DNA from: Candidatus Heimdallarchaeota archaeon | GTDB taxonomy: Archaea; Asgardarchaeota; Heimdallarchaeia; JABLTI01 | Length of the DNA stretch: 64,000 bases | Direction of reading: 5' to 3' | Assembly (NCBI GenBank): GCA_019056785.1 | Contig: DXJV01000025.1 | Coordinates: forward strand, 20,613-84,612 | Shown here: positions 61,979-62,523 of the stretch, piece by piece | Position numbering within the stretch: position 1 is the stretch's first letter | How the letters are laid out: each line of letters opens with the position of its first letter | Translations under genes and position numbers: made by a program | Notes under the pieces: model-generated | The model's input: the letters and a program-made list of their open reading frames with translations, nothing else | The model's database searches: none | Told to the model about the DNA's origin: nothing

Positions 61979-62014
61979 AAAAAAAAGCTTAGAAAATAAG
62001 AGACGAGAAGAAAA
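61979..62014 (-). terminator. Pyrimidine/U-rich tract after the 5S precursor
   Basis: Minus strand reads TTTTCTTCTCGTCTCTTATTTTCTAAGCTTTTTTTT immediately after the flanking stem. Confidence 0.5.
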
Positions 62015-62030
62015 TGCTAGAACCCATCGT

Positions 62031-62150
62031 TTCCGGGATCGGACGAGTCCGGGTGTTACCCTCCAGCTTTGACCGCGTCACAACGCAGCTCAATGATGTT
62101 CCCGAACGATCGCTCAGATCAGTAATTATCATTACGTATGGAGGCTTAAC
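62031..62150 (-). rRNA. rrf: 5S rRNA gene, circularly permuted (canonical 3' half 62150-62080 precedes canonical 5' half 62079-62031)
   Basis: Re-ordered sequence GACGCGGUCAAAGCUGGAGGGUAACACCCGGACUCGUCCGAUCCCGGAA|GUUAAGCCUCCAUACGUAAUGAUAAUUACUGAUCUGAGCGAUCGUUCGGGAACAUCAUUGAGCUGCGUUGU is 120 nt, has archaeal 5S motifs, and can form helices I-V. Confidence 0.93.
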
Positions 62151-62192
62151 TTCCAGCGATGAGTTCCGCAGTATTGTTGGTTTTGCCTTCAC

Positions 62193-62210
62193 TATTTAAA
62201 GTTTCCCTCT
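62193..62210 (-). promoter_or_regulatory. BRE/TATA promoter for the 5S precursor
   Basis: Minus strand AGAGGGAAAC-TTTAAATA. The TATA box lies about 25-30 nt upstream of the start of the flanking stem (~62170-62167). Confidence 0.75.
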
Positions 62211-62280
62211 TTTTGGGAAAATGAAAGAAAAATGCTTCTTATAAAAGAGCACTCTTAAGAAGCAAAAAACAATGCTTTTT

Positions 62281-62523
62281 CTATGCTTGTTTTTTAATGA
62301 AATAGTGATTGCAGCCATCTTCTTCAAAGACACCCAAGAGCTCGTTCCCGGTTCGATTGCACCAACGTGGGAAATCTTCTTTAGAGCCGGGGTCGCTTGA
62401 AAGGACCTCTAAGACTTGTCCCATCTCCATAGTTTTGATCTGCTTTTTGGCTTTCAAGATTGGCAATGGGCATTGTAGACCTCTTGCATCAAGAGTGACG
62501 TCAGTCTTTGGTTTTTCAGTCAT
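62281..62523 (-). CDS. tusA: Sulfur carrier protein TusA/SirA family
   Basis: LDARGLQCPLP, DPGSKEDFPRWC and YFIKK motifs. Confidence 0.93.
   Translation of the reverse strand: MTEKPKTDVTLDARGLQCPLPILKAKKQIKTMEMGQVLEVLSSDPGSKEDFPRWCNRTGNELLGVFEEDGCNHYFIKKQA

What the first reader, a model, noticed from the sequence alone, without database searches (positions are those of the whole stretch)
62016..62210. Flanking stem with a bulge-helix-bulge-like motif predicts splicing-endonuclease circularisation of the 5S RNA
Seen: the leader GGAACTCATCG (62167-62157) is complementary to the trailer CGATGGGTTCT (62029-62019), 11 bp with two G-U pairs. Inside this stem the trailer strand has a 3-nt bulge AAA (62032-62030), then a 4-bp helix CTGG (62156-62153) / CCGG (62036-62033), then unpaired AAG (62152-62150) on the leader strand. 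A BRE/TATA lies at 62210-62193 and a U-rich tract follows. Known: archaeal tRNA splicing endonuclease cuts BHB/BHL motifs after the second nucleotide of each 3-nt bulge, and RtcB ligates the ends. Applying that rule cuts at 62151|62150 and 62031|62030, and ligation yields ...CCCGGAA-GUUAAGCC..., exactly the conserved 5S sequence, as a 120-nt circle. The inner closing helix is imperfect, so this is a relaxed BHL form. Inference: 5S maturation here depends on the tRNA-intron splicing machinery.
Basis: partly seen in the sequence, partly recalled or inferred. Interest (0 to 1): 0.9.

Follow-up and report, generated by a model that had tools for sequence, protein, structure and literature searches.

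The report
Permuted 5S rRNA gene, circular product
This Heimdall-group Asgard archaeon encodes its only detectable 5S ribosomal RNA back half first, between cut signals of the tRNA-splicing type. Public environmental RNA from close relatives contains exactly the predicted cut-and-rejoined 120-nt ring, which explains why 5S genes seem to be missing from these relatives of eukaryotes.

Summary
On the minus strand, an 11-bp leader/trailer helix (62167-62157 with 62029-62019) leads into a 4-bp helix (62156-62153 with 62036-62033). A 3-nt AAA bulge and an unpaired AAG flank that helix, and there is no inner closing helix, so the motif is the relaxed hBHL form.

The 120 nt between the predicted cuts (62150-62031) are a circularly permuted 5S rRNA. 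Helix I is capped by a UGUG loop. Rotating the sequence restores a colinear match to canonical Asgard 5S.

This is the only 5S-like locus in the genome. The flanking helices covary strongly across the family, the class and much of the phylum.

In four RNA runs from four studies, seven Logan contigs of exactly 150 nt (120 + k-1) cover only 62031-62150. Each contig joins 62150 back to 62031, and none covers the flanks. These contigs come from close relatives (90-99% alike).

The genome encodes a crenarchaeal-type alpha/beta EndA pair and RtcB. Cleavage by EndA is inferred, not shown. Whether the ring is the form in the ribosome is also not shown.

I found no paper describing this. The scan has noted the same thing before on other DNA (110 findings in at least 82 genomes).

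The parts
62193..62210 (-). Putative archaeal promoter: A-rich BRE-like stretch followed by the TATA box TTTAAATA (62200-62193). The inferred transcription start is near 62170-62168, 1-3 nt before the leader helix.
   Evidence: Sequence. AAACTTTAAA is invariant at the same distance in all 12 loci of the family, while the surrounding spacer varies. The start site is inferred from the usual spacing of about 26 nt between TATA and start (own knowledge); it is not measured.
62157..62167 (-). Leader strand of the outer helix (h) of the splice motif, GGAACUCAUCG.
   Evidence: It forms 11 contiguous pairs with 62029-62019. Nine of the 11 pairs show compensatory changes in the class.
62153..62156 (-). 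Leader strand of the central 4-bp helix (H), CUGG.
   Evidence: It pairs with CCGG at 62036-62033. Phylum-wide H variants are CCGC/GCGG, CCGA/UCGG, CUGG/UCGG, CGUG/CACG and CAGG/CCUG, and all 4 pairs covary.
62150..62152 (-). Unpaired AAG on the leader side (the 'loop' side of the hBHL form). The predicted cut lies between 62151 and 62150, so G62150 becomes the first residue kept.
   Evidence: The inner helix has 0 bp. The RNA joint begins or ends at 62150, with a 4-nt ambiguity.
62031..62150 (-). The 120-nt excised and joined product: a complete 5S rRNA in permuted order. Positions 62150-62083 hold the 3' part and 62078-62031 hold the 5' part.
   Evidence: An HMM of canonical Asgard 5S matches the rotated sequence colinearly (50.1 bits, E 1.8e-17). 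In genomic order the match splits in two, at model positions 5-50 and 51-104. The 5S helices are 99.5% paired, and 23 of 34 pairs covary. The RNA contigs cover exactly this interval as a circle.
62072..62089 (-). Helix I closed as a hairpin: 7 bp (62089-62083 with 62078-62072) capped by the tetraloop UGUG (62082-62079). The cap joins what are the 3' and 5' ends of an ordinary 5S.
   Evidence: The stem covaries, for example GCGU/ACGC changes to GCAC/GUGC in L013, while the loop varies (UGUG, UGCG, CGCG, CUCG, UUCG, AAUG).
62033..62036 (-). Trailer strand of the central helix H (CCGG). In the mature fold the same four bases form helix III with CCGG at 62052-62049.
   Evidence: The two pairings exclude each other.
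62030..62032 (-). Canonical 3-nt bulge AAA between H and the outer helix. The predicted cut lies between 62031 and 62030, so A62031 is the last residue kept.
   Evidence: The RNA joint is at 62031.
62019..62029 (-). Trailer strand of the outer helix, CGAUGGGUUCU.
61979..62014 (-). T-rich tract with runs at 62014-62011, 61996-61993 and 61986-61979. It probably serves as the oligo-T termination region.
   Evidence: Sequence only. That archaeal RNA polymerase terminates at oligo-T is own knowledge; it was not tested here.

Best explanation
The locus is the genome's 5S rRNA gene, encoded in circularly permuted order.

Proposed pathway:
1. A short transcript is made from its own TATA promoter.
2. 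The 11-bp leader/trailer helix brings the leader CUGG onto the trailer CCGG. This forms a relaxed bulge-helix-bulge (hBHL) motif.
3. The heteromeric (alpha-beta)2 splicing endonuclease cuts after the second unpaired nucleotide on each strand, at 62151|62150 and 62031|62030.
4. RtcB joins the 2',3'-cyclic phosphate and 5'-OH ends.
5. The result is a covalently closed 120-nt RNA in which ...CCCGGAA-GUUAAGCC... is restored. The freed CCGG then re-pairs with the inner CCGG as helix III.

What is shown: the gene is permuted, it is the only 5S-like locus in the genome, the motif is conserved with covariation, and the joined 120-nt circular sequence exists in RNA of close relatives.

What is inferred: the identity of the enzymes, the exact cut positions, and that the ring, rather than a re-opened form, is the 5S in the ribosome (my estimate is about 0.6).
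For: **The gene is a 5S rRNA**
- The Rfam model RF00001 finds only two adjacent partial matches at this locus and nothing else in the 2.87-Mb genome.
- The permuted model R1 finds one copy in the genome.
- The rotated sequence matches canonical Asgard 5S colinearly (E 1.8e-17), whereas the genomic order splits the match at model position 50/51.
- All five 5S helices covary, with 99.5% of cells paired.

**The motif is real**
- The outer helix has 11 bp and the central helix 4 bp, with 3-nt unpaired stretches in the geometry of a tRNA-intron BHB.
- Compensatory changes occur in 9 of 11 outer pairs in the class. Phylum-wide they occur in all outer and all central-helix pairs.
- In lineages where the central helix is not palindromic (CGUG/CACG, CCGC/GCGG, CCGA/UCGG), the leader can pair only with the trailer.
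- Two different registers of the motif, applied with the same cut rule, both rebuild ...CGGAAGUUAAG....

**The product exists**
- Seven circular 150-nt contigs from four RNA runs of four studies carry the joint 62150 to 62031 and have no depth on the flanks.

**The enzymes are present**
- The catalytic EndA subunit is closest to the Aeropyrum, Sulfolobus and Pyrobaculum alpha subunits (3p1z_B, E 3.4e-41).
- A second EndA-like protein lacks the histidine at the aligned position.
- There is one RtcB (584 bits).

**There is a precedent**
- The permuted SRP RNA of Thermoproteus is cut at such a motif by a heterotetrameric EndA and is circular in vivo (PMC4731332).
Against: - No inner helix h' closes the leader-side bulge, so the motif is not canonical.
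- ViennaRNA prefers the leader CUGG paired with the inner CCGG. The BHB conformer is 3.9 kcal/mol less stable and makes up about 5.6% of the ensemble.
- The shared GGAA leaves the cut positions ambiguous over 4 nt ('both = 4').
- The RNA evidence is from assembled contigs, not reads. Contigs cannot show RNA ends, relative amounts or rare linear forms.
- The contigs are 90-99% alike to the window, so they come from relatives.
- No enzyme assay exists for this or any Asgard EndA on this substrate.
Confidence: 0.8

Rival explanations
1. The ring is only a processing intermediate. After circularisation the RNA is opened again, for instance in or near the helix I cap, so the ribosome carries a linear 5S. 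[quoted passage not shown]
For: Circular rRNA intermediates that are re-linearised are the textbook archaeal pathway (PMC12918454 background; PMC7758197). Contigs cannot show RNA ends or local drops in depth. An earlier check within this scan priced 'the ring is the ribosome's 5S' at 35/100.
Against: Every 31-mer around the ring, including the helix I cap, is present in the RNA contigs. The cap loops vary in sequence and include stable UNCG-type loops, while the stem covaries; this looks like a structural cap and not a conserved cleavage site. The total length of 120 nt equals that of a canonical 5S. Circular 23S is now reported inside mature archaeal ribosomes (PMC12918454).
Confidence: 0.22
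2. The permuted transcript is trimmed but mostly not ligated. The working 5S would then be a linear, permuted molecule with a nick between GGAA and GUUAAG, and the junction contigs would come from a minor ligated fraction.
For: A nick in the helix III / loop C region might be tolerated, since the flanking helices would hold the fold together. Contigs show presence, not proportions. Low-level 5S circles of unknown meaning occur in Sulfolobus and Halobacterium (PMC3326292).
Against: The junction lies in the most conserved stretch of 5S, and its sequence is rebuilt exactly in every lineage, in two motif registers. That points to selection on the joined product. In all four studies the contigs close into a circle and do not end at 62150 or 62031.
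Confidence: 0.05
3. The ring is real, but the cuts are made by another nuclease that acts on the alternative fold, in which the leader pairs with the inner CCGG, or by end trimming. Ligation would then follow through RtcB or another ligase, without EndA.
For: The alternative fold is the thermodynamic optimum here, holding about 91% of the ensemble. Known archaeal 5S maturation uses other nucleases: tRNase Z in Haloferax (cited in PMC7714728) and an A/U-motif endonuclease in Methanococcus (PMC10515664).
Against: The alternative pairing is impossible in lineages with a non-palindromic central helix (CGUG/CACG, CCGC/GCGG), yet these keep the geometry of a 4-bp helix and 3-nt bulges. The central helix covaries. 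The geometry predicts the observed junction.
Confidence: 0.1

Closest known systems
Permuted, circular SRP RNA of Thermoproteus tenax and T. uzoniensis (Plagens et al. 2015, eLife, PMC4731332)
   Same: Both are essential structured non-coding RNAs whose gene halves are swapped. In both, leader and trailer form a BHB with a 4-bp helix and at least one 3-nt bulge. The organism has a heterotetrameric EndA with relaxed specificity, and RNA-seq shows the ligated junction, so the functional RNA is a circle.
   Different: Here the RNA is the universal 5S rRNA, not SRP RNA. The arrangement is not confined to one genus: it was found in 95 of 151 sampled genomes of the phylum. For the SRP RNA, cleavage by EndA and protein binding by the circle were shown experimentally; for this 5S neither is shown.
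Circularly permuted tRNA genes (Cyanidioschyzon merolae; reviewed in PMC3978253)
   Same: The 3' half is encoded before the 5' half. A BHB forms at the junction of the termini, and a circular intermediate is made by the tRNA-splicing machinery (abstract).
   Different: Permuted tRNAs are re-opened by RNase P and tRNase Z to give linear tRNAs. Here the native ends are replaced by a tight tetraloop, and no re-opening signal is evident.
[quoted passage not shown]
   Same: A BHB in a leader/trailer processing stem is cut by EndA and the ends are ligated to a circle. For 23S, the circle or a permuted derivative can be the form in the ribosome.
   Different: Those genes are colinear with the RNA, and circularisation only joins the natural ends. 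Here the gene itself is permuted, so ligation is needed to create the conserved helix III / loop C sequence. PMC12918454 states that 5S rRNAs are not processed in this way.
Permuted mitochondrial 5S rRNAs (Valach et al. 2014, PMC4267664)
   Same: These are 5S rRNA genes with permuted order that standard models miss.
   Different: They are organellar. Nothing I read there (title and start of the abstract) mentions a BHB/EndA pathway or a circular product. I did not read the full paper.
Canonical archaeal 5S rRNA (Rfam RF00001)
   Same: After rotation, the sequence, length (120 nt) and five-helix fold are the same.
   Different: In genomic order the locus scores 23.9 bits against a cut-off of 38, so it is not annotated. 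Helix I is a capped hairpin and does not carry the two RNA ends.

Membership tests
5S rRNA (RF00001) | Match to the family covariance model at the gathering score | tested here: not met
   In genomic order the best match is 23.9 bits against a cut-off of 38. A second partial match of 16.7 bits lies next to it. The failure is explained by the permutation; see the next row.
5S rRNA (RF00001) | Colinear sequence homology to canonical 5S over the whole molecule | tested here: met
   Once the sequence is rotated at the helix I loop, an nhmmer profile of five canonical Asgard 5S genes (each 49-85 bits on RF00001) matches positions 5-104 colinearly (50.1 bits, E 1.8e-17). The unrotated sequence splits into two matches.
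5S rRNA (RF00001) | Helices I-V around a three-way junction, supported by covariation | tested here: met
   With 34 pairs counted, 99.5% of cells are paired, 23 pairs show changes on both sides, and 0 of 500 shuffles reach this. Slid controls give 32-47% paired.
5S rRNA (RF00001) | Incorporation into the large ribosomal subunit | not testable with these tools
   This needs ribosome purification or a structure. Indirect support: it is the only 5S-like locus in the genome.
Substrates of the archaeal splicing endonuclease (BHB/BHL motif) | Central 4-bp helix flanked by 3-nt bulges on opposite strands, each 3' of its helix strand | tested here: met
   CUGG/CCGG is followed by AAG on the leader strand and by AAA on the trailer strand. 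The helix covaries phylum-wide.
Substrates of the archaeal splicing endonuclease (BHB/BHL motif) | Outer helix h of at least 2 bp closing the bulge on the exonic side | tested here: met
   The outer helix has 11 contiguous pairs, and 9 of the 11 covary.
Substrates of the archaeal splicing endonuclease (BHB/BHL motif) | Inner helix h' closing the second bulge (canonical hBHBh') | tested here: not met
   There are 0 inner pairs in every locus examined. The motif is therefore the relaxed hBHL form. Plagens et al. define a BHB as needing 'at least one' 3-nt bulge.
Substrates of the archaeal splicing endonuclease (BHB/BHL motif) | An endonuclease of a type that accepts relaxed motifs is encoded in the genome | tested here: met
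   Two proteins each carry the N- and C-terminal EndA domains. One has Tyr, His and Lys at the aligned catalytic positions and is closest to crenarchaeal alpha subunits. The other lacks the His. [quoted passage not shown]
Substrates of the archaeal splicing endonuclease (BHB/BHL motif) | Cleavage by EndA at the bulges | not testable with these tools
   The product sequence fits the cut rule, with a 4-nt ambiguity. The enzyme has not been assayed.
Permuted non-coding RNA genes restored by circularisation | Halves in swapped order, with the native ends fused by a short loop | tested here: met
   Helix I is a 7-bp stem with a UGUG loop.
Permuted non-coding RNA genes restored by circularisation | The ligated junction is present in RNA but absent from the DNA | tested here: met
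   The joint 62150 to 62031 is seen in RNA contigs from four studies. All 12 genomic loci of the family are single, non-tandem copies with unique flanks. The contigs come from relatives 90-99% alike. No DNA run of the same samples was laid.
Permuted non-coding RNA genes restored by circularisation | The circular form is the functional one | not testable with these tools
   This needs RNase R treatment, a northern blot or a ribosome structure.

The most novel reading that the evidence does not exclude
A covalently closed 120-nt ring, made by the tRNA-splicing enzymes from a back-to-front gene, is the functional 5S rRNA inside the ribosomes of the Heimdall group and most other sampled Asgard lineages. 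If so, in the archaeal lineages closest to eukaryotes, assembly of a universal ribosome component depends on EndA and RtcB, and a natural ribosome works with a 5S that has no ends.
Probability: 0.55. Interest if true: 0.9.

Novelty: new variant of a known kind. Interest (0 to 1): 0.85.

Why it matters
5S rRNA is universal, and its gene is normally trivial to find. Yet closed Heimdallarchaeum genomes were published with the remark that no 5S gene could be predicted (PMC8813620). This locus explains that gap: the gene is there, but written back to front.

It also makes 5S production dependent on the tRNA-splicing endonuclease and ligase. Current reviews and a 2026 survey say that circularisation applies to 16S and 23S but not to 5S.

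The arrangement covers 95 of 151 sampled Asgard genomes, while three families keep a canonical gene. This gives a discrete, easily scored character for Asgard phylogeny and a practical fix for annotation, namely a permuted covariance model.

If the ring is the ribosomal form, it is a natural test of whether a ribosome needs free 5S ends.

Tried and rejected
- **Rfam at gathering threshold** over the whole 64-kb window found nothing, and ARAGORN found no tRNA or tmRNA. The locus therefore stands alone and is not part of an rRNA operon.
- **Thermodynamic folding** of the precursor, both single-sequence MFE and RNAalifold, did not return the BHB. It paired the leader CUGG with the inner CCGG instead. 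I kept the BHB because lineages with a non-palindromic central helix exclude the alternative pairing.
- **The sequencing-run index** gave only small shares (3-4 of 14 sampled words), and no run holds this exact sequence. The contigs could be laid only at 85% likeness, so no habitat or strain claim is made. All runs were contigs, so RNA ends, strand and abundance could not be read.
- **A chimeric assembly** between permuted and canonical 5S of different organisms was considered, because the junction 18-mer also occurs in canonical Asgard 5S (L081). I rejected it. Seven contigs close cleanly at 120 + 30 nt, include the helix I cap, and show no branch.
- **Two outputs of my BHB scanner** (L045, L069) were artefacts and were ignored.
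- **Eight literature searches** found no report of a permuted or circular 5S in archaea. The library lacks most subscription journals, so this is not proof of absence.
- **The weak MCS4 and other sub-threshold Rfam hits** around the promoter were treated as chance.

Full report
**What is at the coordinates**

Read on the minus strand, the region is laid out in this order:
- a TATA-like box, TTTAAATA (62200-62193), preceded by an A-rich stretch;
- the leader GGAACUCAUCG (62167-62157), then CUGG (62156-62153), then AAG (62152-62150);
- 117 further bases;
- CCGG (62036-62033), AAA (62032-62030) and CGAUGGGUUCU (62029-62019);
- several T-runs.

The two 11-mers pair over all 11 positions, with two G-U pairs. 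CUGG pairs with CCGG, with one U-G pair. My scanner confirms 11 contiguous outer pairs, 4 of 4 central pairs, no inner pair and a 120-nt interval between the predicted cuts.

**The enclosed 120 nt are a 5S rRNA in swapped order**

- Rfam finds no 5S at its gathering score in the window or anywhere in the 2.87-Mb assembly (82.5% complete). It finds only two adjacent partial matches at this locus, of 23.9 and 16.7 bits.
- The interval begins with GUUAAGCC..., which is the continuation of the conserved ...CGGAA|GUUAAG... of loop C and helix III. It runs through helices II (3' strand), V and IV to the 3' strand of helix I.
- It then turns through a UGUG tetraloop (62082-62079) into the 5' strand of helix I, and ends with ...ACACCCGGACUCGUCCGAUCCCGGAA.
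- I fetched five canonical 5S genes from other families of the same phylum (49-85 bits on RF00001) and built an nhmmer profile from them. The sequence rotated at the tetraloop matches that profile colinearly (positions 5-104, 50.1 bits, E 1.8e-17). The genomic order splits into model 5-50 at the 3' end and model 51-104 at the 5' end.
- On 26 loci of the class, the five 5S helices are paired in 99.5% of cells, with 23 of 34 pairs showing compensatory changes. With slid partners the figure is 32-47%, and 0 of 500 shuffles reach the observed values.
- A covariance model of the permuted form finds exactly one copy in this genome.

**The flanking motif is conserved and covaries**

- All 11 other genomes of the family hold the same layout (89-93% identity over the core) and all give a 120-nt product.
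- Within the family, the pair next to the bulge switches between G-C and A-U. Another pair switches from C-G to U-A in L014.
- Across the class the outer helix has an entirely different sequence (for example GAGAUCCUG/CAGGAUC) but stays paired. Nine of 11 pairs show changes on both sides and 90.7% of cells are paired.
- Phylum-wide, all 7 outer pairs and all 4 central pairs covary. This count is on 26 loci from 15 families and on an alignment fitted to the model.
- The directly read table is more telling. The central helix occurs as CUGG/CCGG, CCGG/CCGG, CCGC/GCGG, CCGA/UCGG, CUGG/UCGG, CAGG/CCUG and CGUG/CACG.
- In the CGUG/CACG lineages the motif is shifted by one base relative to the 5S sequence, with bulges AAA and GAA. 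Cutting after the second bulge nucleotide still rebuilds ...CACGGA-AGUUAAG....
- So two registers, one rule and one product. This is hard to explain unless the geometry of a 4-bp helix with 3-nt bulges is what is being selected.

**Geometry and the enzyme**

- On each strand the order is flanking helix, then the 4-nt helix strand, then three unpaired bases. This is the arrangement of a tRNA-intron BHB. There the bulge at the 3' splice site lies between the anticodon-intron pair and the anticodon stem, and the cut falls after its second base. That cut rule is from my own knowledge of the tRNA system and was not checked in a paper here.
- The trailer bulge is canonical. The leader-side bulge is not closed by an inner helix in any locus, so the motif is the relaxed hBHL form.
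- Such motifs are cut only by the (alpha-beta)2 and epsilon2 endonucleases (PMC5829648 abstract; PMC7714728; PMC4731332).
- The genome encodes two EndA-like proteins, each with the N- and C-terminal domains.
  - One is closest to the catalytic subunits of Aeropyrum, Sulfolobus and Pyrobaculum (E 3.4e-41 to 4.3e-30). It keeps the ...VYQHGPGIDHSPY... and ...SVKKKF... residues aligned with the catalytic Tyr, His and Lys.
  - The other has no histidine at that place.
  - Together they look like a crenarchaeal-type alpha/beta pair.
- One RtcB is present (584 bits).

**RNA evidence**

- No public run holds this exact sequence. Sixteen RNA runs share the conserved words.
- I laid Logan contigs of four RNA runs from four studies on 61990-62200 at 85% likeness. 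Seven contigs matched.
- Every one of the seven is exactly 150 nt long. They cover only 62031-62150, with zero depth in all bins outside that interval.
- Each contig maps in two pieces that overlap by 30 nt. This gives the joint '62150 to 62031, goes back 120' in all four runs.
- A length of 150 nt equals 120 + (k-1) for k = 31 (I take k = 31 from the tool's own 31-letter words). This is what a closed cycle in a de Bruijn graph prints as. All 120 words around the ring, including those across the helix I cap and across the junction, are therefore present without a stronger branch.
- Depths reach 220-fold in one run, where three sequence variants of the ring occur.
- The genomic loci are single and non-tandem with unique flanks, so the joined form is not encoded as such.

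Limits of the RNA evidence:
- The contigs are 90-99% alike to the window, so they come from relatives.
- Contigs cannot show ends or proportions.
- The four bases GGAA occur on both sides of the joint, so the cut could lie anywhere within them.
- No DNA run of the same samples was laid.

**What argues against the reading**

- ViennaRNA places the leader CUGG on the inner CCGG (62052-62049). That conformer has 91% of the ensemble, and the BHB conformer is 3.9 kcal/mol higher. RNAalifold does the same.
- In this family CCGG is palindromic, so the sequence itself cannot decide between the two pairings. The non-palindromic lineages decide for the leader-trailer pairing.
- The same CCGG must later leave the leader and form helix III, so a conformational switch is part of the model.

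**Is the ring the final form?**

This is not shown.

For the ring:
- The cap is a tight tetraloop of varying sequence (UGUG, UGCG, CGCG, CUCG, UUCG, AAUG) on a covarying stem, with no conserved feature that looks like a cleavage site.
- The ring has the length of a normal 5S.
- The contigs are closed in all four studies.
- Circular 23S in mature archaeal ribosomes has been reported (PMC12918454).

Against the ring:
- Re-linearisation is the classical fate of archaeal rRNA circles.
- Contigs would not reveal it.

I put the ring as the ribosomal form at about 0.55-0.6.

**Distribution**

- The permuted model finds full-length matches in 95 of 151 sampled genomes of the phylum. This includes every sampled family of the window's class and closed genomes.
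- Families f11, f20 and f17 carry canonical genes in the five genomes I tested.
- Record titles of the nearest loci name 'Candidatus Heimdallarchaeota archaeon' MAGs.
- Wu et al. [quoted passage not shown]

**Comparison with what is known**

- The closest precedent is the permuted, circular SRP RNA of Thermoproteus. There, cleavage of the BHB by the heterotetrameric EndA and protein binding by the circle were shown (PMC4731332).
- Permuted tRNA genes use the same machinery but are re-opened (PMC3978253).
- Archaeal 16S and 23S are circularised at BHB motifs, but from colinear genes.
- Low-level 5S circles of unknown meaning were seen in Sulfolobus and Halobacterium (PMC3326292).
- Permuted 5S genes are known in mitochondria (PMC4267664).
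- Known archaeal 5S maturation uses other nucleases.
- In eight full-text searches I found no report of a permuted or splice-circularised 5S in archaea.
- The scan itself has noted the same arrangement before, in 110 findings from at least 82 genomes. Two earlier follow-ups also report the ring in environmental RNA. I repeated that test independently for this locus.

**Verdict**

- This is a new variant of a known kind of system: a permuted RNA gene repaired by the tRNA-splicing machinery, here applied to a universal ribosomal RNA across much of a phylum.
- The enzymology and the ribosomal form remain to be shown.

Noticed in passing
L022 and L023 (closed genomes G016 and G026), L024, L025, L027, L028; second copies L066 and L069: In another family of the class (f2), the leader of the permuted 5S carries an insertion of about 31 nt. 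The insertion has its own hairpin (for example UCUGGA-UGUGU-UCCAGA) and sits between the outer leader/trailer helix and the 4-bp helix. The precursor would therefore form a three-way junction and not a plain BHB. The two closed genomes each have two permuted copies, and the second copy (L066) has a plain 5-bp outer helix.
   Followed up: partly
L071:1500-1720 (G015); also L016 and L017 (G053, G015): An insertion of about 28 nt lies inside loop C of the permuted 5S (...CATTCCGAA[AGATATGAAGGAATTTCTTCATTCCGGG]AACCCGGAAA...). It is flanked by a CATTCCG repeat. It could be a small intron or an expansion segment.
   Followed up: no
L061, L062, L064, L077, L078 compared with the window: Two registers of the splice motif exist in the phylum. 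One has the central helix CNGN/NCGG with cuts AA|G and AA|A. The other has CGUG/CACG with cuts AA|A and GA|A. Both rebuild the same ...CGGAAGUUAAG... junction. In the second register the cuts cannot lie outside the bulges.
   Followed up: partly
L080-L084 (G112, G107, G097, G064, G084): Three Asgard families (f11, f20, f17) carry ordinary, colinear 5S genes (49-85 bits on RF00001). The permutation is therefore not universal in the phylum and could serve as a phylogenetic character.
   Followed up: partly
window 62202-62297 (+): There is a weak, sub-threshold Rfam match to Mycoplasma sRNA MCS4 (27.8 bits against a cut-off of 56) over an AT-rich hairpin just upstream of the 5S promoter. It is probably a terminator-like hairpin of the neighbouring gene, or chance.
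   Followed up: no
L047:427-1467 (-) in the own genome, contig C54: The catalytic EndA gene lies directly upstream of a 346-aa ORF on the same strand, with a gap of only 6 nt. From its cysteine motif the ORF looks like a radical-SAM-type enzyme, possibly a tRNA-modification enzyme. It was not scanned.
   Followed up: no
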